Made by a program: the position numbers and the translations under genes
In this document: positions 16,504-26,197 of the stretch, piece by piece
Numbering within the stretch: position 1 is the stretch's first letter
Layout: every line of letters begins with the position of its first letter
The notes under the pieces: generated by a model
Database searches by the model: none
Seen by the model: only the letters and a program-made list of their open reading frames with translations
What the model was told of the DNA's origin: nothing
Assembly: GCA_016178265.1 (NCBI GenBank)
Contig: JACOTS010000134.1
Location: 1 to 35,711, forward strand
DNA length: 35,711 nucleotides
From: Candidatus Melainabacteria bacterium
GTDB taxonomy: Bacteria > Cyanobacteriota > Vampirovibrionia > 2-02-FULL-35-15
Reading direction: 5' to 3'

Positions 16504-19500
16504 ATGCCAAGTATTACTTCTGTTAATCACACACTAGGAAATGGTAAAGGATTAGTTACACAAAATGATGTTACATCTGAAGATAAAGTAAGAGGCAGCT
16601 CAAAACAAAGTAATAAAGGGCTTTCAAGAGCAACGAGTTTTGTTGCAAAAGCTGTTGCATCACTGGCACTTCTTATGCCACTTATTGATGCTTCTAGTGT
16701 AGATGCTGCAAATAATCCTGAAAGAGAAAAAGCAGTAGCAAAGTTTGGCGATGATTCATGGGCTGCATTAAGAGATGCTTTAAAGCAAGATAAATTAAAA
16801 GATCTTCCAAATGCAAGATCACTTTGGAACAATATAAAAGCAGTTCTTCATGTATCAGATGATACAAAGATAGAAGCAGTTGATGCACTTAGAAAAGAGC
16901 TTATATCAACAGGGATTAAAAATTCAAATATACCTCCGGAAATAGTTCATGAGGCAATTTATACAACCTCAGTTGTGGCACAAAGCATAAATAAAGATCT
17001 TGCTGCTAACAATAAAAAGCTAGCTGAGCTTGATAAAAAGATGGCTGAACTGGCAACTAAATCAGAAGGAATTACAAAAAATGGTGGTCAGCTTTCAAAA
17101 GAAATGACTGATGAAAAAGCTAAATTCGATAGCGACAAAGCAACACTAATAGCTGAAAATAAAACACTGGAAGGAAGACTAGCAAAAATTATAGAGCCTG
17201 TAGTTCCATTTATGGGCAAAATTATAGTTGATGTTACCAAAGAAGGTGGTAAAGAAGAAAGATTTCTTGTCCGCCCATCTGAAGTAGGAAGATTTTATGG
17301 AGGAGATGACCTATTCGCTAGCGGCCCTAGCTATGAAAAAGTTAAAGTCTATAACAGCAATAACTTTGAAAATCTTGCTGCTTATACACTTGCACAAGCA
17401 GGGGAAAAAGGATTCTTTGAAAAAGTTGGAAGAGAACTCCTTACAAGTGGAAATGATGAAGCAAGAAGAGATGAATTTTTTAACATCTTTAAGTACACAG
17501 GATCGGATGTTACCCTTCCAAAAGATGTAACAGAAAAATCAAAAGAATGGATCTATGGAAGAAAACAAATGGAAGCCTTCAATAAGGGGGATGCAGCAGC
17601 AGCAGAACCAGCAAGCTCTAATACAGATATAGAGTTTGAGATTATAGAGCCTGACAATGCTAAAGATAAAGCTCCTGTAGACAAAGGAGTTAAGGACTCG
17701 CAACCGGTGCCTCCAGGAAGTACTGTTATTGTGCTTCCACCAGGAACTGAAATTGGAACTGCTAAAAAGCATCCAACACCTGATGTTCCTCGTGGTGCTA
17801 GCTATGGTTCAATTGAAGAGCTAAGAAAGATAAATGAGAAGCTTGTAAAACCTCTTCTTCCATACCCATACAGCAAATCAGCAAGTGATCAAGACTTTAT
17901 TGCTGATAATGTTTTAATGCTTGCAAAGCATGGAGATGAGCTTGCACTTCCAGCTTGTGCGCAATGGTTTGCAATTAAGAGCTATTCGGAAGGTTCCAGC
18001 GGTGGAGGTTTCTTTAGCTCTGCTTCACCAGCAGATATGAAGATGCTTGAAGCACTTTCAATTATGGCTCAAAAAGATGAAGTTGCATTTACAGTACTTG
18101 AAAGATACATAGGATCATTTCCAAAACAATTTGAGAGAACCTTTCTTTATGGTACCTATGCTCTTTGGGACTCACCTCAAAAAAGAGCAGGGGCTGAGAT
18201 GATAAAAGCACTCAATCTTCATAAAGATAATGCAAAAAATCTTGTTACTGCACTATCTAATAAAGAAACAAAACTTATTTGGCCTGAACCTATGTCAGAT
18301 ACTGATGTAGAACATGTAAATAAGCTAAGAGATGCAGGAAGAAGTGTAGCTTTAATGATCATGGCTTTTGATGATAAAGCACACAACTTTACTCCTTATC
18401 TTAGAGACATTGTAAAAAATGACTTTGCTAAAGATATGGAAAGATTTGTTTCTATGATTGGGGTAGCACTTGCAAAAGACAAAGAGTCTGTTGAACCTCT
18501 TTTGAATATTGCTATCGATGAAACAAAACCTATGGGAATGCGTGAGCTTGCTCTTGATGCGGTTCTTTATATTGACAGACCTGATCTTATTCCGGCTGCA
18601 ATAAGAGAAAAAGAAGCAGAAGGATCTCCATTTACTGGAGCAAAACTTAGGCACTTCTTCCCTAATCTTATTGAAAGAACAAAGCCAGAAACTGAAACAG
18701 ATTTCTGTGCTGCTATTGAAGGAAAAAATCCTTTTCAAGCAAGGATTAAAGCTCAATATGACAGGTGGCTTACACTTGAAAATGCAGCCATTGAAAGTGC
18801 AAAAGCAAAAGGTGGTGCGCCTGGAACAATTACCGATGCTCAGAAACTAGGGGCATTTATTGAACTTAGAGAACGTGAGCTTGGTGGAACAGGCATGGCA
18901 CTTTCTGGAAGAGCAGGGGATGCAACATTTAGCAGTAAGTATGTTAAACCAATGGTTAACTACCTTAAAGATCACAGAGATATAAAGAAACCTCTTTATT
19001 GGGGAATTGCATACTCTATGATGGATGTGCTTGGTAAATCAAATGCTACCGAGGCAGCACCACTGCTTAGAGACATGGCAACTTATCCAGAGATTTATGT
19101 CCAAGATAATTCACGTGGACAAGGATTCTTTGGGTTTTTTGATGTGCTCTTTAATAATTTTGAGATGTCACTTATCAAAGCAAATGCAATTAAAAACTTA
19201 GGTGGTGTAGTTGACCTAAAAAATCCTGCATCTGATGAGGCAAAAGTGCTTCACTTAGTTGCACTTAAAGATTCTTCGCTTGACTACAGATGGATGGCAC
19301 AAAAAGGGCAAAGAGAGCTTGCAAGAAGATATGACAGTGCAATGGCTGGTTTAAAACCAGGCGATGCAACATTTGATGAGCTTTCTAAAGCACGTGCTGC
19401 TCATGCCAGTGAAATGGTTGGGCAAATGCAGTATCATGCAGAGGGACGTGAATACGAAACCCAGATGCGCCTTTTTGATCTTAGAGAGCAGTTTATGCTT

Positions 19501-20739
19501 GCAAAAGGTGCTGATATGATGGGCGGAACAAAAGATCTTGTTATGCTTGCTCATGAAGCATCTAAGAAAGATGCTAAAGCACCTGTCATTCGTACAGTTA
19601 TGCATGCTCTATTTTCAAATGGAAAAGGAGTGGATGAGATAAAAGCTCTTGGATTTCCAGCTGACGTTGCTGACAATGCATGCGCAATGTATAAGATGGT
19701 AAATGAACAAGAGTACTGGCTTGGCAAAAAAGAAGACAGGAAATTTACAGGTGAAGGAGTAGAAGTAGCAATAGTTGACGGTGGCTATGTATATCCTCTA
19801 GATATTAAAGGTTTTGAAGGACTAAAAGAACGTATTGTATATCCTGAAAAACTAGTTACATGGTCAGACCTTACAACTTGGCTTGACTTACATCCTACAA
19901 TGGTAGCTTCTACTTTGCATAAAGCTGCACCAGCAAGTGCAAGTGATAAGATTCACTCTTATAGCTTCATGGCAAGTATTCCTGAAACACCGTTTAGACC
20001 ATGGGGTACTCAGGATTCAGCGTTGTATGCGCTTGAAGATATTGCACAAAATAAAATAGCAGGCGAGTCGAATGTCGAGCTCATTAACTATTCATGGGGA
20101 TATATTAACTTTATCCTTGCGAATGAAAAAATGAGATCTGACTTTATTGATATTGCTTCTGCATACATGGAAACGTTAAGTAAAATAAACACCATGCATA
20201 CAGTTGCTGCAGGAAATGAGCATGGAGCATTCCCAGCATTTGTAAGATATGGTTCAGTTGGTGAGTTAAATGTGCTTGGGCTTAGAATGGACAGCAACAA
20301 TAAATTCACAAAGCCTGATGGTGTGTTTTATGCATCAGCTATGGATAAGTATGCAGACAGGCTTGCTGAGTTTACATCTAAGCAAGATCCACTTCGAGCA
20401 GCAGAAGCAATAACAATGCTTAGCTTCCAAGGTGTTCATGTACTAGTTCCTTATCCTCTTGACGGAGCTTGGGATGTACAACCTGTAAATGGAACTTCAT
20501 TTGCAGCACCTAATAACGAAGCAGTGCTTGCATGGGGTCTTAGTGCTCGAAAGAAACTAGGGCTTCCTGAACTCTCAGCTTCTGATTGGGAAACACTCCT
20601 TCAAAGGTCAAACAAACACTTTCCACAAAGGGAAAATTGGGAAGGTGGGAAATACTTTGATGCTACCCAATTTATGAAAGATGCAACAACCTTTAAAGCT
20701 GATGTTAAACAACCAGCGGTTGCAGAGGCTAATAAATAG
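16504..20739 (+). CDS. large exported protein with C-terminal S8 (subtilisin-like) peptidase domain
   Basis: VAIVDGG (Asp), LHPTMVAS (His), AAGNE (oxyanion Asn), GTSFAAP (Ser); helical N-terminal region; GGAGG RBS. Confidence 0.8.
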   Translation: MPSITSVNHTLGNGKGLVTQNDVTSEDKVRGSSKQSNKGLSRATSFVAKAVASLALLMPLIDASSVDAANNPEREKAVAKFGDDSWAALRDALKQDKLKDLPNARSLWNNIKAVLHVSDDTKIEAVDALRKELISTGIKNSNIPPEIVHEAIYTTSVVAQSINKDLAANNKKLAELDKKMAELATKSEGITKNGGQLSKEMTDEKAKFDSDKATLIAENKTLEGRLAKIIEPVVPFMGKIIVDVTKEGGKEERFLVRPSEVGRFYGGDDLFASGPSYEKVKVYNSNNFENLAAYTLAQAGEKGFFEKVGRELLTSGNDEARRDEFFNIFKYTGSDVTLPKDVTEKSKEWIYGRKQMEAFNKGDAAAAEPASSNTDIEFEIIEPDNAKDKAPVDKGVKDSQPVPPGSTVIVLPPGTEIGTAKKHPTPDVPRGASYGSIEELRKINEKLVKPLLPYPYSKSASDQDFIADNVLMLAKHGDELALPACAQWFAIKSYSEGSSGGGFFSSASPADMKMLEALSIMAQKDEVAFTVLERYIGSFPKQFERTFLYGTYALWDSPQKRAGAEMIKALNLHKDNAKNLVTALSNKETKLIWPEPMSDTDVEHVNKLRDAGRSVALMIMAFDDKAHNFTPYLRDIVKNDFAKDMERFVSMIGVALAKDKESVEPLLNIAIDETKPMGMRELALDAVLYIDRPDLIPAAIREKEAEGSPFTGAKLRHFFPNLIERTKPETETDFCAAIEGKNPFQARIKAQYDRWLTLENAAIESAKAKGGAPGTITDAQKLGAFIELRERELGGTGMALSGRAGDATFSSKYVKPMVNYLKDHRDIKKPLYWGIAYSMMDVLGKSNATEAAPLLRDMATYPEIYVQDNSRGQGFFGFFDVLFNNFEMSLIKANAIKNLGGVVDLKNPASDEAKVLHLVALKDSSLDYRWMAQKGQRELARRYDSAMAGLKPGDATFDELSKARAAHASEMVGQMQYHAEGREYETQMRLFDLREQFMLAKGADMMGGTKDLVMLAHEASKKDAKAPVIRTVMHALFSNGKGVDEIKALGFPADVADNACAMYKMVNEQEYWLGKKEDRKFTGEGVEVAIVDGGYVYPLDIKGFEGLKERIVYPEKLVTWSDLTTWLDLHPTMVASTLHKAAPASASDKIHSYSFMASIPETPFRPWGTQDSALYALEDIAQNKIAGESNVELINYSWGYINFILANEKMRSDFIDIASAYMETLSKINTMHTVAAGNEHGAFPAFVRYGSVGELNVLGLRMDSNNKFTKPDGVFYASAMDKYADRLAEFTSKQDPLRAAEAITMLSFQGVHVLVPYPLDGAWDVQPVNGTSFAAPNNEAVLAWGLSARKKLGLPELSASDWETLLQRSNKHFPQRENWEGGKYFDATQFMKDATTFKADVKQPAVAEANK

Positions 20740-20759: not shown

Positions 20760-20791
20760 AGGGTCAGGTTTAAGTTAAATCTGACCCTTTT
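20760..20791 (+). terminator. intrinsic terminator
   Basis: AGGGTCAGGTTTA-agt-TAAATCTGACCCT followed by Ts. Confidence 0.75.
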
Positions 20792-20861
20792 AATTATTTG
20801 TAGGGTTAACATTGGTTTCTAATATTTGTTTAGGGAATGCTTAATTTATAAGGGTGTTTCT

Positions 20862-21110
20862 ATGAAAGCTGTATTGTTGGCTTTAATTGTGTGCATGGGG
20901 CCTTACTCCTGTTCTTATGCTGCTACAGAGGACTCCTTAACAGGTTTTGTTAATAATTCTTTGCAAGGAATCACAGGAAGTGTAACATTTGAAAATACTG
21001 ATTCTGCAACAGAAGGAGCATACGAATATTTTCTTAATGATTATCATTATCTAGACAGTGATGTTAAGTTGGATCTAGATCCCGCTTCTACAGAGAATTA
21101 CCCAAAATAG
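20862..21110 (+). CDS. small secreted hypothetical protein
   Basis: MKAVLLALIVC..SYA signal-like N-terminus. Confidence 0.6.
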   Translation: MKAVLLALIVCMGPYSCSYAATEDSLTGFVNNSLQGITGSVTFENTDSATEGAYEYFLNDYHYLDSDVKLDLDPASTENYPK

Positions 21111-21111
21111 C

Positions 21112-21159
21112 TTATTTCTTCTTTCCAGTGATTATGGGTTCTGCTACGCTAGCTGGGAC
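21112..21159 (-). pseudogene. displaced duplicate of the fusA 3' end ([15 protein letters not shown])
   Basis: 48 bp encoding the same 15 aa plus stop as 21246-21293, with 8 third-position differences. Confidence 0.95.
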
Positions 21160-21248
21160 CTTGTTTTTATACCGCTCGCCTCGTGCGAACACTCGGCTCG
21201 CTTGTAAAGTCACGACGCATTTTGCCAAGTGAATTGGACAAAATGCTA
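21160..21248 (-). repeat. two-hairpin GA-tandem element, copy B (3' of fusA)
   Basis: minus strand TAGcattttgtccaattcacttggcaaaatgcgtcg...gcGAgccGAgtgttcgcacGAggcGAgcggtataaaaacaa. Confidence 0.9.
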
Positions 21249-23324
21249 TTTCTTTTTGCCAGTTATAATAGGCTCAGCTACGCTAGCTGGGACTTCTTCG
21301 TATGCGGCAAATTCCATAGTAAATGTCCCTTGACCTTTGGTTCTATTTCTTATGTCTGTTGCATATCCAAACATTTCAGATAAAGGCACCTTGCCGTTTA
21401 CTTTTGAAAGTCCTCTTTCTGTAGTCATTCCTTCAACACGTCCGCGCCTTGAAGAAACATCCCCAATCACATCACCCATAAACTCTTCCGGGACCTCAAT
21501 TTCAAGATTCATTACAGGTTCCAAAAGAGTTGGTTTTGCTTTCATAAAACCTTCTTTAAATGCCATAGAACCTGCAATCTGAAATGCCATATCTGAAGAA
21601 TCTACATCATGGAAACTTCCATCATGAAGTGTAATTCTAAGATCAATTACAGGATACCCTGCAAGCACCCCACCTGCCATAGCTTCTTTAACTCCTTTTT
21701 CAACCGCAGGAATATATTCTTTTGGAATAATACCACCTACAATTTTGTTTACAAACTCAAATCCTGAGCTTCTTTCAAGCGGTTCCACGTCAATAACAAC
21801 GTGACCATATTGACCACGACCGCCAGATTGCCTGATATATTTTCCTTCTTGAGTAACTCTGGCTTTGCAGGTTTCACGGTATGCAACTTGTGGTTTACCT
21901 ACATTAGCCTCCACTTTAAACTCTCTTAAGAGCCTATCTACAAGAATTTCAAGATGAAGTTCTCCCATTCCTGAAATAATTGTTTGCCCTGTTTCATGAT
22001 CCACATGCACTTTAAAGGTAGGATCTTCTTCTGCAAGTTTTTGAAGTGAAAGCCCAATTTTTTCTTGATCTGCCTTTGTTTTTGGTTCAATTGCAACCGA
22101 TATAACAGGATCAGGGATATGAAGAGACTCAAGAATAATTGGCTTTTTCTCATCGCAAAGAGTATCTCCTGTAGAGGTATCTTTTAAACCAACTACAGCA
22201 CAAATATCTCCTGCATATACTTCGTCTACTTCTTTTCTATCATCAGCCTGTAGTTTTACTATACGACTAATTCTTTCTTTTGCGTCCTTGCTTGCATTAT
22301 AAATATAGCTTCCTGCCTTCAGGCAACCGCTATATACCCTAATAAAGGTCAGTCTTCCAACAAAAGGATCTGTCATTATTTTAAATGCAAGTGCTGCAAA
22401 AGGTTCATTATCATCTGACTTACGTTGTATTTCAGATCCATCTTTTAAAATCCCTTTTATAGCTTCAACCTCAGTTGGGTTTGGCAAGTAATCTACTACT
22501 GCATCAAGAAGCTGTTGAACACCTTTATTTTTAAAAGCAGATCCACATGTAATTGGAATTATCTGTAATTTGCATACAGCATTGTGAAGTGCTTGCTTGA
22601 GCTCAGGAACAGGAATTTCTTTACCCTCTAAATATCTGCTCATTAAATCATCATTGGTTTCAACTATGGCTTCTACAAGTTTTTCTCTTAATTCTTTTGC
22701 TTTGTCCATAAGCTCAGTAGGAACATCAACCGTGTCAAATTTTCTTCCCATCTTATCGGTTTCATCGTAGATGTATGCTTCCATCTCAAGAAGGTTTACG
22801 ACACCTTTTAACTGATCTTCAGATCCTACCGGGATTTGAATTGGGTGTGCATTGACTTTAATTTCATTAATTACTTGACTTACAACCTTGAAAAAGTCGG
22901 CACCTGTTCTATCCAATTTGTTTACAAAAATAATCCTAGGTACTTTATATCTGTCAGCTTGTTTCCAAACAGTTTTTGTTTGAGGTTGTACCCCGCCTAC
23001 GCCGCAAAGAACAATTACAACGCCGTCAAGCACTCTCATAGAACGCTCAACTTCAATGGTAAAGTCAACGTGACCAGGGGTATCAATTAAGTTTATATAC
23101 TTATCTTTCCATGTGGTTGAAATAGCTGCAGCAGTTATGGTAATTCCTCTTTCTTTTTCTTGTGCCATCCAGTCTGTAACTGTAGTACCTTCATGGACCT
23201 CGCCAATCTTATGAACAAGTCCTGAGTAAAATAAAAACCTTTCTGTGGTTGTGGTCTTTCCTGCATCAATATGAGCAGCAATTCCCATGTTAATTGTTTT
23301 ATCTAATGGTATTTGACGTGGCAC
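21246..23324 (-). CDS. fusA: elongation factor G
   Basis: [26 protein letters not shown] and GMGELHL motifs; GTG start with AAGGAG RBS. Confidence 0.98.
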
Positions 23325-23337
23325 AATGATCTCCTTT

Positions 23338-23425
23338 TTGTTTTTATAACGCTCGTTTCGCGCGAACGCTCAACTTGCTTTTCCCCTTCGACGCTTTTTG
23401 CTGAGTAAATCAGACAAAAAGCTTA
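23338..23425 (-). repeat. two-hairpin GA-tandem element, copy C (5' of fusA)
   Basis: minus strand taagctttttgtctgatttactcagcaaaaagcgtcg...gcAAgttGAgcgttcgcgcGAaacGAgcgttataaaaacaa, followed by the RBS. Confidence 0.9.
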
Positions 23426-23515
23426 GCTTTATAATAGGATACGGTATAACCCAATAAGTTTCCAAGATATTTTAAATTCTTTTAACATTAGAGATAGCAA
23501 ATAGCATTTAACTAT

Positions 23516-25143: not shown

Positions 25144-25297
25144 GAATGTAAAGACCAAAAAAAATGCTATCACTTAGAATTTTAAGAGACTTTTACATAT
25201 TTTGCGTTAAAATATAAAGCTTTGATTAATTTAATTCCTAAATAGCCAATAAGTGATTGTAGGATGGTAAGTTGGTTATTATCTAGCTGAGATGGAG

Positions 25298-25335
25298 GAG
25301 CGAGTCGAGTGTTCGCACGAGACGAGCGATTATAA
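25298..25335 (+). repeat. GA-tandem element, copy D (hairpin 2 only, 5' of HTH gene)
   Basis: gagcGAgtcGAgtgttcgcacGAgacGAgcgattataa directly before the ATG. Confidence 0.85.
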
Positions 25336-25662
25336 ATGACAAGTGAAAGAGAAGTTGTTAGGCAAGATGTTCCTCAAGAAGTAGAAGCAGACTTAACTGA
25401 TGAGACAAGAGTTGCTCTAGCACTTTATTTAAAAGTATATTCTGAAGGAAAAGTTACCCCGCAAGGCATTATAGTGCCTGAGTTAAATATTCATAAGCTG
25501 GCACATGCTGCAGAAGTTCCAAACAGGCAAGTAAGCAAAACTTTTGAAAGACTTAGAGGAAAAGGATTTTTAGGAAACCTTCCTTCAGGGCATCTTGTTG
25601 TCAAAAACCTAGAAGAGTTTCAACAATGGTTAGTTAGCCAAGGCGCATCAATTGATGTGTAA
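25336..25662 (+). CDS. small winged-HTH (Crp-type) DNA-binding protein
   Basis: LNIHKLAHAAEVPNRQVSKTFERLRGKGFL..LVVKNLEE resembles a Crp C-terminal HTH. Confidence 0.65.
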   Translation: MTSEREVVRQDVPQEVEADLTDETRVALALYLKVYSEGKVTPQGIIVPELNIHKLAHAAEVPNRQVSKTFERLRGKGFLGNLPSGHLVVKNLEEFQQWLVSQGASIDV

Positions 25663-25745
25663 GCTTTTGTCCAACTTGTTTGGCAAAAGCGTCGAGGATC
25701 AAAGAAGCGAGTTGAGTGTTCGCACGAAACGAGCGGTATAAAAGT
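25660..25745 (+). repeat. two-hairpin GA-tandem element, copy E (3' of HTH gene)
   Basis: TAAgcttttgtccaacttgtttggcaaaagcgtcg...gcGAgttGAgtgttcgcacGAaacGAgcggtataa. Confidence 0.9.
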
Positions 25746-25804
25746 AGTTTCAACAATGGTTAGTTAGCCAAGGCGCATCAATTGACGTTTAAGCTTTTGT
25801 CCAA
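25746..25804 (+). pseudogene. duplicate of the HTH gene 3' end plus the start of another element copy
   Basis: 59-bp direct repeat of 25616-25674 with 2 synonymous differences. Confidence 0.93.
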
Positions 25805-25813
25805 ATTAAAAAA

Positions 25814-26038
25814 CTATTCTGCTGCTTCTTCTTCTCGAGGTACGCATGTACCGTAATCAGTACCTTCTTCTATTTCACATTCAAATTTATCAGGATTACA
25901 ACAAGGATCCCAACTAGGTGGATCTCCGCATACGCCTCCTTCAACAGCACAAGAGCAAAGCCCATTTTGAATTGGCAGTGCGGCCAGGCAAAAGGCAAGA
26001 GGTATAAGGACTATTAGTTTCTTTATAAAATTGTTCAT
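25814..26038 (-). CDS. small secreted Cys-rich (knottin-like) peptide
   Basis: signal peptide followed by C-X6-C-X8-CC-X6-C-X10-C. Confidence 0.7.
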   Translation of the reverse strand: MNNFIKKLIVLIPLAFCLAALPIQNGLCSCAVEGGVCGDPPSWDPCCNPDKFECEIEEGTDYGTCVPREEEAAE

Positions 26039-26197
26039 AAGTTTCCTACAGAGTTTTACAGCTAGTTATCTTATACCCACTGCCTGTGACGCAAAGCAAC
26101 AAAAATCCTAATATGAGTTATTTTTAACCTAAATTCCTCTATTTACAGTACCTGTTTAAATTGAAGTTAACATTGAATTCTAAGGGGAATCCCTATG

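What the first reader, a model, noticed from the sequence alone, without database searches (positions are those of the whole stretch)
21112..21293. fusA 3' end present twice, identical in protein but differing at 8 third positions
The in-frame end is GTC CCA GCT AGC GTA GCT GAG CCT ATT ATA ACT GGC AAA AAG AAA TAG. The copy 134 bp downstream is GTC CCA GCT AGC GTA GCA GAA CCC ATA ATC ACT GGA AAG AAG AAA TAA. The first 17 nt are identical (a possible crossover core) and every difference is synonymous, so both versions evolved as coding sequence rather than one decaying neutrally. The distal stop lies 1 nt from the convergent gene's stop at 21110. This tight packing suggests the distal copy is ancestral and the in-frame end came from another allele (inference).
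Basis: partly seen in the sequence, partly recalled or inferred. Interest (0 to 1): 0.82.

Follow-up and report, generated by a model that had tools for sequence, protein, structure and literature searches.

The report
Displaced fusA end beside structured repeat
The last 48 bases of the elongation factor G gene really occur twice, separated by one copy of a small two-hairpin repeat that litters this genome, and the second copy is most likely an untranslated relic left by recombination rather than a working piece of the gene.

Summary
The last 48 nt of fusA (21293..21246, minus strand) recur at 21159..21112. The 8 differences all fall on third codon positions and both copies encode the same 15 residues.

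It is one copy of a dispersed, about 85-nt, two-hairpin element that I call E:
- 57 near-full copies in this 1.87-Mb genome.
- 9 of its 20 base pairs show compensatory changes.
- Found only in this family among the genomes searched, with no Rfam match.
- It points the same way as transcription, usually from a stop codon to the next start codon.

The layout "gene 3' end, E-type element, copy of the gene 3' end" recurs at 5 more loci here: a glmS-like gene, a Clp ATPase gene, tRNA-Arg and two others. It also recurs in two other genera, including an independent fusA case.

A 98%-identical metagenome relative carries a third synonymous version of the fusA end, with different DNA downstream.

Best reading (0.5): gene ends travel with their downstream element between lineages by recombination. 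An untidy join at the element's 3' end left the other allele's end as a relic. Which copy is the older resident is unresolved. No integrase, reverse transcriptase or matching transposase end was found. This is a new variant of a known kind of scar.

The parts
21246..23324 (-). fusA (elongation factor G), 692 aa, complete
   Evidence: ORF list; Pfam GTP_EFTU, EF-G_D2, EFG_III, EFG_IV, EFG_C
21246..21293 (-). Proximal, in-frame copy of the fusA terminus (15 codons plus TAG)
21161..21249 (-). Element E: one copy of a dispersed two-hairpin repeat. Its first bases overlap the fusA stop codon
   Evidence: Own-genome search, nhmmer, covariance model hit at 97.3 bits, RNA fold -28.4 kcal/mol with z -3.15
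21217..21246 (-). Hairpin 1 of E (12 pairs), starting at the last base of the stop codon
   Evidence: Consensus fold with compensatory changes; single-sequence fold
21174..21201 (-). Hairpin 2 of E, with two tandem G-A/A-G internal loops and a TTCG loop. A 38-nt stretch covering it (21165-21202) is identical to the half-element upstream of rpsJ on contig C17
21112..21159 (-). Distal copy of the fusA terminus (15 codons plus TAA). It is out of frame with fusA by 2 and begins directly after the 3' end of E
21092..21111 (-). Degenerate copy of the first about 18 nt of E after the distal stop. It overlaps the end of the convergent small ORF
   Evidence: The blastn self-match extends to 21092-21159 against 21228-21293, 68 nt at 80.9%; alignment
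20862..21110 (+). Convergent small ORF (82 aa from ATG; hydrophobic N-terminus), an orphan
   Evidence: no Pfam family; no homologue in 120 other class genomes; absent from L159
20760..20788 (+). Terminator-like hairpin with T run after the 1411-aa gene. Part of the stretch missing in L159
23338..23426 (-). Second full E copy, directly upstream of the fusA start
   Evidence: 107.5 bits
25659..25747 (+). E copy of the second case in this window, following ORF 25336..25662
25746..25807 (+). Distal copy of the last 46 nt of ORF 25336..25662 plus the first about 13 nt of E (2 coding differences, both synonymous)

Best explanation
What it is: the distal 48 nt is an untranslated relic of a second allele of the fusA terminus. 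It sits next to a small structured intergenic element, E.

What E is: an element found only in this family, about 85 nt long, made of two halves.
- Hairpin 1 starts at a stop codon.
- Hairpin 2 ends in TATAAAA, often right at the next start codon.
- E points the same way as transcription, so it most likely acts in the RNA as an inter-gene unit. That role is inferred.

How the duplication arose (inferred):
1. In this lineage the last 20-75 nt of a conserved gene and the element behind it are exchanged between strains and species as one piece.
2. On the gene side the incoming DNA pairs by homology inside the gene. In fusA this would be in or before the 17-nt identical block.
3. On the other side the 3' end of E is joined without homology, at 2-4 nt of chance identity (AAG here), a few tens of bases upstream of the resident stop.
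4. The result is gene, incoming terminus, E, resident terminus.

Because both termini had been working gene ends in different lineages, they differ only at synonymous sites.

Shown: the repeat itself, the element family and its structure, the recurrence of the layout, and the existence of at least three synonymous alleles of the terminus.

Inferred: the joining mechanism, and that the distal copy is not translated.

Unresolved: which of the two copies was the resident one.
For: 1. The DNA between the copies is a repeat family.
- 84 nhmmer hits in the genome, 57 of them near-full.
- 20 consensus pairs, 9 with changes on both sides.
- 12 of 12 family genomes have matches at E <= 0.001.
- At E <= 1e-6: 6 of 11 other family genomes have matches, and 0 of 109 genomes from 10 other families of the class.

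2. E follows transcription. Among neighbouring ORFs within 60 nt of 53 copies:
- upstream neighbours are on the same strand in 16 cases and the opposite strand in 2;
- downstream neighbours are on the same strand in 19 cases and the opposite strand in 3.

3. The layout recurs.
- An unbiased self-comparison of the genome listed 36 direct-repeat pairs spaced 40-600 nt.
- Six of these have the form: gene 3' end, two-hairpin insert of 66-126 nt ending in ..GCG(G/T)TATAAA-like sequence, copy of the gene 3' end.
- The six genes are fusA, ORF 25336..25662, a Clp ATPase gene, a glmS-like gene, a gene on contig C113, and tRNA-Arg.
- A 729-kb sample of genome G002 gave 2 more among 25 pairs: a sigma-70 gene, and tRNA-Lys with a shorter insert that is not E-like.
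- Of 10 family fusA loci that could be read, 1 (G001) has its own case, with a different E-like insert and a 30-nt copy.

4. In all cases the distal copy begins directly after the insert's 3' end.

5. Across the 7 protein-gene cases, 17 of 19 coding differences are synonymous (my count).
- By contrast, the distal tRNA-Lys copy differs at 6 of 42 positions. By my reading, 3 of these break T-stem pairs. That is what free decay looks like.

6. Contig L159 has a 98.0%-identical fusA (40 differences in 1969 nt, 34 at third positions, in patches).
- Its last about 22 nt are a third synonymous version.
- They are followed by a different hairpin element, and then, 126 nt on, by the neighbouring gene.
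- So termini and downstream elements are replaced together between near-identical backbones.
Against: - No spanning molecule. No single read or contig was seen across both copies.
- No known mechanism explains why the non-homologous join should fall exactly at the 3' end of E in every case. That regularity points to something specific to the element that I did not identify.
- In three E cases the distal copy also includes the first 13-20 nt of E, ending in the loop of hairpin 1. The simple model does not predict this.
- In 5 of the 6 cases in this genome the two copies are 92-98% identical. A same-molecule duplication fits them just as well.
- Donor lineages are hypothetical. No genome of the same genus is held, and only one close metagenome contig was found.
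Confidence: 0.5

Rival explanations
1. E inserts as a transposable element and makes a long, variable target-site duplication from the same molecule. One fusA copy was later overwritten by a diverged allele through ordinary homologous recombination.
For: - The form 'dispersed repeat flanked by direct repeats of the target' is the textbook signature of transposition.
- Most cases have nearly identical copies: 51 of 52, 73 of 76 and 59 of 62 nt.
- In genus g5 the E core sits inside a clear inverted-repeat element with an 8-bp duplication, so it can ride on transposons.
- The genome has an IS1634-family transposase (342 bits against a cut-off of 100). IS1634 and IS1549 are reported to make direct repeats of 8-514 bp, with no mechanism known (PMC2266710, passage read).
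- L159 shows that terminal allele replacement does happen at this very site.
Against: - E in this genome has no terminal inverted repeats.
- The 12-bp ends of the IS1634-type element match neither the ends of E nor the g5 element.
- Only 3 of 72 E copies show flanking repeats, and 0 of 84 sampled copies in relatives do.
- All 8 E-type cases duplicate the 3' end of a gene on the same strand as the element. None duplicates a gene start or plain spacer.
- In three cases the duplicated stretch includes part of E itself, which a target duplication should not.
Confidence: 0.2
2. Ordinary attachment-site scar. An integrase-bearing island or prophage once integrated into the fusA 3' end, bringing a replacement end, and later lost nearly all its DNA. 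This would be like a decayed element that keeps only attL and attR.
For: - The same logic holds for e14 in E. coli icd. The icd gene runs into the prophage, a C-terminal pseudogene icdC lies at the other end, and excision brings in mainly synonymous changes (PMC13626634, passages read).
- Decayed elements that keep attL and attR are described as CIMEs (PMC5704250, passage read).
- The targets here are classic ones: tRNA-Arg from just before the anticodon stem to the 3' end, tRNA-Lys from the anticodon loop to the 3' end, and the glmS end.
Against: - The 86 nt left is not random debris. It is one intact member of a multi-copy family with its canonical ends.
- The same kind of insert lies at six unrelated targets, which a site-specific integrase would not serve.
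- The genome has only 3 tyrosine-recombinase hits, none at these loci.
- No relative shows an island at fusA: 10 of 10 readable family loci have none within the 140 nt printed.
Confidence: 0.1
3. The distal copy is kept in coding shape because ribosomes reach it. A -1 shift on C-AAA-AAG (21258..21252), 7 nt before hairpin 1, puts the ribosome in a frame that stays open through E and ends with the same 15 residues.
For: - The distal frame is open for 53 codons back to a TGA at 21276..21274, inside fusA.
- Spacing is 134 = 2 mod 3, which is the -1 frame.
- A Lys-Lys slippery run, a spacer and a 12-pair hairpin lie in the usual order.
- In G001 the distal copy is in frame 0 and the insert has no stop, so read-through would reach it.
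- These are the two cases with many differences, all synonymous.
Against: - 35 of 159 E-copy frames are open by chance.
- The two fusA cases would need different recoding events.
- The other 3 protein cases tested are not open.
- The heptamer lacks the first matching base.
- A 38-residue insertion before a repeated tail has no evident use.
- No expression data were available.
Confidence: 0.04
4. Assembly chimera. Two strains' versions of the fusA end were strung together through the repeat.
For: - The genome is a 184-contig metagenome-type assembly.
- The public-run contigs break inside E, where 38 nt are identical to another copy.
- The two copies look like alleles.
Against: - The odd junction (E 3' end joined to a 48-nt fusA fragment, followed by the small ORF) is itself present without differences in a 4903-nt contig of X1. 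It is also present in a contig of another sample, X3.
- Depths on both sides are alike: 6.56 and 6.3.
- Eight further loci in three genomes share the layout.
Confidence: 0.04

Closest known systems
Prophage e14 (and phage 21) in the E. coli icd gene, with the icdC pseudogene
   Same: - The 3' end of a conserved protein gene is present twice.
- The in-frame end is supplied by incoming DNA and the other end is a displaced fragment.
- The differences are mostly synonymous (PMC13626634, passages read).
   Different: - There, a 15-kb prophage with its own recombinase lies between the copies. Here there are 86 nt of a multi-copy non-coding repeat and no integrase.
- Here the same insert type occurs at several unrelated genes.
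- Phage 21 is recalled from memory and was not read.
CIMEs: decayed integrative elements that keep attL and attR
   Same: Target-end repeats flank DNA that has no recombination genes of its own (PMC5704250, passage read).
   Different: - CIMEs are leftovers of one particular island at one integrase's site.
- Here the insert is a conserved structured family, and the targets are many.
Small dispersed structured repeats of bacteria (REP/BIME, ERIC, Correia-type miniature transposons; named from memory)
   Same: - Short, hairpin-forming, multi-copy and intergenic, in transcribed spacers.
- In genus g5 the E core lies within a true miniature inverted-repeat element with an 8-bp duplication.
   Different: - In this genome there are no terminal inverted repeats and no short duplication of fixed length.
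- The ends coincide with stop and start codons.
- A minority of copies carry 29-77-nt copies of the upstream gene's end.
IS1634/IS1549 long variable direct repeats
   Same: - Direct repeats of variable, unusually great length (8-514 bp) flank the inserted DNA, with no mechanism known (PMC2266710, passage read).
- A transposase of this family is present in the genome.
   Different: - Those are 1.5-2-kb autonomous elements.
- The ends of E do not resemble the ends of this IS.
Homology-facilitated illegitimate recombination
   Same: A linear DNA enters by homology at one end and joins without homology at the other (PMC3240628, abstract in the search listing only).
   Different: - I did not read whether such events give duplications.
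- The join here is always at the element's 3' end, which that process does not explain.

Membership tests
Integrase-made attachment-site scar (attL/attR) | Direct repeat of the target gene's 3' end on both sides of the inserted DNA | tested here: met
   47-48 nt at 85% identity, spaced 134 nt
Integrase-made attachment-site scar (attL/attR) | A site-specific recombinase gene in or beside the insert, or remains of island genes | tested here: not met
   The insert is 86 nt. The 3 PF00589 hits in the genome lie on contigs C12, C140 and C35:1289-1675, not here
Integrase-made attachment-site scar (attL/attR) | One recombinase serves one target sequence | tested here: not met
   The same insert family lies at fusA, glmS-like, Clp ATPase, tRNA-Arg and two other genes
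Miniature inverted-repeat transposable element | Many copies of similar length | tested here: met
   57 near-full copies
Miniature inverted-repeat transposable element | Terminal inverted repeats | tested here: not met
   None at the ends of the 24 aligned copies. They are present only in the g5 form
Miniature inverted-repeat transposable element | Short target duplication of fixed length | tested here: not met
   3 of 72 copies have flanking repeats, of 46-75 nt; the others have none above control level. The g5 form has 8 bp
Derivative of the resident IS1634-family element | Ends matching the IS ends | tested here: not met
   The 12-bp perfect inverted repeat of the IS was found only at IS copies
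IS200/IS605-type hairpin element | Y1 transposase available in the genome | tested here: not met
   PF01797: 0 matches in G000 (89.5% complete). It is present in 6 of 12 family genomes but in none of the five with the strongest E matches (bit scores above 90: G000, G001, G002, G004, G009)
Diversity-generating retroelement (template and variable repeat) | Reverse transcriptase nearby, and differences only where the template has A | tested here: not met
   PF00078: 0 of 12 family genomes. Only 5 of 8 differing sites have A in the distal copy
Any described RNA family (Rfam 15) | Match to a curated covariance model | tested here: not met
   0 matches at gathering score in the window. Only tRNA was found at E <= 0.01 in six loci, including this one
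Programmed -1 ribosomal frameshift site | X XXY YYZ heptamer, 5-9 nt spacer, downstream structure, and an open -1 frame | tested here: inconclusive
   C AAA AAG (the first base does not fit), a 7-nt spacer, a 12-pair hairpin and an open frame of 53 codons. The pattern is not shared by the other cases

The most novel reading that the evidence does not exclude
E-type elements are integrase-free homing cassettes. Each copy moves between genomes together with the last 20-75 nt of the conserved gene it follows (fusA, glmS, clpC, a sigma-70 gene, tRNAs). That stretch serves as its address, and a defined cut at the element's own 3' end serves as the other joint. In this way an 85-nt non-coding element can enter the ends of essential genes without harm, and it leaves the old end behind as a relic.
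Probability: 0.2. Interest if true: 0.8.

Novelty: new variant of a known kind. Interest (0 to 1): 0.55.

Why it matters
If the reading is right, the ends of highly conserved genes in this groundwater lineage are not inherited strictly with the gene. They are swapped together with a small structured spacer element. This would explain strings of synonymous changes at gene ends that otherwise look like selection or sequencing error.

It also adds a family-specific, strongly covarying RNA-like element that is in no library. That element frames genes from stop codon to start codon, and its function can be tested.

Finally, it gives a set of natural junctions (nine loci in three genera) from which the joining rule of a small non-autonomous element could be worked out.

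Tried and rejected
- Reads. Only contigs of runs could be laid, and none spans both copies. Runs X4 and X7 from other studies cover only parts of fusA: a 410-nt contig with 16 differences ending near 21259, and a 168-nt identical contig ending at 21287. They say nothing about the junctions.
The runs are groundwater metagenomes.
- RNase P. I first took the contig C113 case for the 3' end of RNase P RNA. Rfam found nothing there. It is a protein-gene end, with 1 synonymous and 2 non-synonymous differences.
- Enzyme searches in the own genome with no match: Y1 transposase, reverse transcriptase, IS110 transposase, TnpB-type domain.
- IS91-type Y2 transposase: no match in 12 genomes, but the control genomes did not match either, so this says nothing.
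- IS1634-type element: present and apparently polymorphic, but its ends are unrelated to E.
- Short palindromes at the left edge of the repeats. Stems were 6, 3, 2, 5, 4, 4 and 4 pairs, against 22% of random sites with 5 or more. They are not enriched.
- Recent tandem duplication of fusA through the two flanking E copies. Those copies are only about 75% identical, so I rejected a recent event.
- Constant unit length. The spacings are 129-152 nt in 6 of the first 7 cases. I noted this but can neither explain it nor show it to be more than chance.
- The small ORF beside the distal copy has no homologue in relatives' fusA loci or in 120 class genomes.
- Literature. In the listings I saw no paper describing small repeats that carry gene-end copies. 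These few searches do not show that none exists.
Full report
THE OBSERVATION

The window encodes elongation factor G on the minus strand at 21246..23324. The ORF is 692 aa and has the full set of EF-G domains. Its last 48 nt, 21293..21246, recur at 21159..21112.
- The repeat finder reports 47 nt at 85% identity, spaced 134 nt.
- Compared codon by codon, the copies differ at positions 18, 21, 24, 27, 30, 36, 39 and 48, all third positions.
- Both copies read [15 protein letters not shown] and then a stop. The first 17 nt are identical.
- The distal stop ends one base from the stop of the + strand ORF 20826..21110.
- If the 8 differences fell at random on 48 sites, all would hit third positions with P = 3.4e-5.

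WHAT LIES BETWEEN THE COPIES

It is not. A search of the window's own genome (1.87 Mb, 184 contigs, 33.6% G+C, 89.5% complete) with 21100-21300 gave 46 matches, and all but the self-match cover the middle part of the query only. A profile built from 42 aligned copies finds 84 hits, 57 of them near full length. I call this element E.

Structure of E:
- In an alignment of 24 copies, the consensus fold has 20 base pairs. Nine of them keep pairing through changes on both sides.
- Hairpin 1 has 12 pairs and starts right at a TAA or TAG.
- Hairpin 2 has a TTCG loop and two internal loops of tandem G-A/A-G.
- The element ends in GGTATAAAA.
- The copy at fusA folds at -28.4 kcal/mol, z = -3.15 against shuffles.

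Distribution of E:
- Rfam has nothing like it: no match at gathering score in the window, and only a tRNA at E <= 0.01 in six loci that hold E-type elements.
- A covariance model finds matches in 12 of 12 genomes of the family at E <= 0.001. Counts run from 6 to 111 per genome.
- At E <= 1e-6 it finds matches in 6 of 11 other family genomes, and in 0 of 109 genomes from 10 other families of the class.

Relation of E to genes:
- E follows transcription. Among ORFs within 60 nt of 53 near-full copies, the upstream neighbour is on the same strand in 16 cases and the opposite strand in 2. The downstream neighbour is on the same strand in 19 and the opposite in 3.
- In a dozen copies the element ends within 2 nt of the next start codon.
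- Half elements occur alone: hairpin 1 only, or hairpin 2 only.
- For example, hairpin 2 lies directly upstream of rpsJ on contig C17, and 38 nt there are identical to the fusA copy.
- fusA itself has a second full E directly upstream of its start, at 23338-23426.

My reading, an inference, is that E is an inter-gene unit that works in the transcript.

THE LAYOUT RECURS

For each of 72 copies that have the element's 3' end, I aligned the 100 nt before E against the 130 nt after it. Copies with under 30 nt of flank were skipped.
- Three copies stand out, with scores of 100, 82 and 57. About 600 mismatched control pairs had a 99th percentile of 40.
- These are a Clp ATPase gene on contig C163, ORF 25336..25662 in this same window, and fusA.

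An unbiased self-comparison of the whole genome listed 36 direct-repeat pairs spaced 40-600 nt. Besides these three, it holds three more with the same form, with inserts of 66-126 nt that share E's architecture (a hairpin after the stop, a second hairpin, an end like GCGGTTATAAA) but not its sequence:
- the last 52 nt of tRNA-Arg(ACG): 51 of 52 identical; the tRNA is confirmed;
- the end of a glmS-like gene plus hairpin 1: 73 of 76 identical;
- the end of a gene on contig C113: 33 of 36 identical.

The other pairs in that list are E-E pairs, repeats inside proteins, or other things.

Other genera show it too:
- Among 10 family fusA loci that could be read, one (G001) has its own version. After the fusA stop comes a 99-nt E-like insert that the E profile does not recognise, then a 30-nt copy of the fusA end. 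There are 5 differences, all at third positions, P = 1.8e-3.
- A 729-kb sample of genome G002 gave 25 repeat pairs. Two are of this kind: the end of a sigma-70 gene with an E-family insert, and the last 42 nt of tRNA-Lys with a 46-nt insert that is not E-like.
- Among 84 sampled E copies in relatives, most of them from genus g5, none has a long flanking repeat.

In g5 the E core sits inside a classical miniature transposon, with 13-nt imperfect inverted ends and an 8-bp target duplication.

FEATURES SHARED BY THE CASES

- The distal copy always begins directly after the insert's 3' end, with 2-4 nt that fit both sides.
- The duplicated gene is always on the same strand as the insert, and it is always the gene's 3' end.
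- In the three E cases the distal copy runs on into the first 13-20 nt of E and stops in the loop of hairpin 1.
- In the Clp case, ten further bases after that resemble the gene's last three codons again, which hints at nested events.
- Spacings are 134, 130, 141, 178, 143 and 152 nt in this genome, and 129 nt in G001.

ARE THE COPIES ALLELES?

Over the seven protein-gene cases I count 19 differences in coding parts. Of these, 17 are synonymous, and the 2 that are not both lie in the C113 case.

The distal tRNA-Lys copy shows what free decay looks like. It has 6 differences in 42 nt, and by my reading 3 of them break T-stem pairs. A fusA relic that had drifted freely from an identical start should likewise show changes at first and second codon positions. 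It shows none in 32 such sites.

Direct evidence for several alleles comes from the one close relative I could find, metagenome contig L159:
- Its fusA is 98.0% identical: 40 differences in 1969 nt, 34 at third positions, clustered in patches.
- The neighbouring 1411-aa gene is 97% identical.
- Its last about 22 nt of fusA are a third synonymous version: 6 differences from each of the window's two copies.
- Only 126 nt, holding a different hairpin element, separate the two genes.
- E, the distal copy, the small ORF 20862..21110 and the terminator at 20760-20788 are all missing.
- The last two codons of the 1411-aa gene also differ.

So between nearly identical backbones, the spacer and both adjoining gene ends are exchanged as a block.

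HOW IT MOST LIKELY AROSE

I take the duplication as a by-product of such an exchange. DNA carrying 'fusA terminus + E' paired by homology inside fusA. The 3' end of E was then joined without homology 48 nt upstream of the resident stop, leaving the resident terminus behind. The mirror event is also possible, in which the distal terminus and the small ORF were the incoming piece.

The join and its direction are inferred. Evidence on direction is mixed:
- L159 agrees with the in-frame copy at three differing sites and with the distal copy at three others.
- The small ORF has no homologue in 120 other class genomes.

What this model does not explain is why the join is always at the element's 3' end, and why part of E is duplicated too. 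That is why I give it no more than 0.5.

RIVALS

1. Transposition of E with a long, variable target duplication, followed by allele replacement (0.2).
- It fits the nearly identical pairs.
- It gains some colour from an IS1634-family transposase in the genome. That family is reported to make 8-514-bp direct repeats (PMC2266710, passage).
- Against it: E has no inverted ends. The ends of that IS match neither E nor the g5 element. A target duplication should not contain part of the element.

2. A decayed integrase-borne island, like e14 at icd with its icdC fragment (PMC13626634, passages), or a CIME (PMC5704250, passage) (0.1).
- The targets are classic ones.
- Against it: the insert is an intact member of a repeat family present at six unrelated targets. 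No integrase lies nearby.

3. Translation of the distal copy by a -1 shift at C-AAA-AAG, 7 nt before hairpin 1 (0.04).
- The frame is open for 53 codons. In G001 read-through would do the same.
- Against it: 35 of 159 E frames are open by chance, and the other cases do not fit.

4. Assembly chimera (0.04).
- The unusual junction is itself present in contigs of two samples, and the layout recurs in three genomes.

No reverse transcriptase was found in any of the 12 family genomes. The own genome has no Y1, IS110-type or TnpB-type protein.

VERDICT

The thing is a recombination or insertion scar beside a previously undescribed structured repeat, one of at least nine such loci in three genera. 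It is a new variant of a known kind of scar, of moderate interest. The element family, and the rule by which it drags gene ends along, are the parts worth following.

Noticed in passing
window 25288-25807: Second case of the same layout. ORF 25336..25662 (108 aa, no Pfam family) has a hairpin-2 half element directly before its start. After it come a full E, a 46-nt copy of its own end (2 differences, both synonymous) and the first 13 nt of E.
   Followed up: yes
L079-L158 (genomes G004, G009): In genus g5 the E core is embedded in a miniature transposon of about 125 nt. It has imperfect 13-nt inverted ends, an 8-bp target duplication, and TTAAG just before the duplicated 8 bp in many copies.
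   Followed up: partly
G000 contig C172 (locus L289) 142-1933: An IS1634-family element with a 521-aa transposase and 12-bp perfect inverted ends. Its assembled flanks are identical to stretches inside contigs C17 and C146 that run on without the IS, so the insertions appear polymorphic in the population.
   Followed up: partly
G000 contig C17 (locus L246): tuf is followed by a hairpin, a spacer and a hairpin-2 half element directly before rpsJ. fusA is not next to tuf in this genome. It stands alone between two E copies on another contig.
   Followed up: no
window 20862-21110 (+) and about 25810-26040 (-): Both duplicated gene ends in the window face a small convergent ORF with a hydrophobic N-terminus, and the second ORF is rich in cysteine. 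The first has no Pfam family and no homologue in 120 class genomes.
   Followed up: partly
window 21246-23214 against L159 1-1968: The 40 differences between the two fusA genes are patchy: 11 lie within one 60-nt stretch 240-299 nt before the stop, and there are long stretches with none. This looks like short imported tracts.
   Followed up: no
G000 contigs C2, C17, C35, C57, C142, C144, C159 and others: Many E copies are preceded by the same purine-rich spacer of about 40 nt and form arrays of E, spacer, E. Repeat copies often lie at contig ends, so they probably break the assembly.
   Followed up: no
window 16504-20739 (+): A 1411-aa ORF whose only Pfam hit is a weak subtilase match near the C-terminus. 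Its last two codons differ from those of the 97%-identical copy in L159.
   Followed up: no
L045 (G000 C163:15000-15400) 301-330: After the distal copy and the partial E of the Clp ATPase case, ten bases again resemble the gene's last three codons. This may be a still older relic of the same kind.
   Followed up: no
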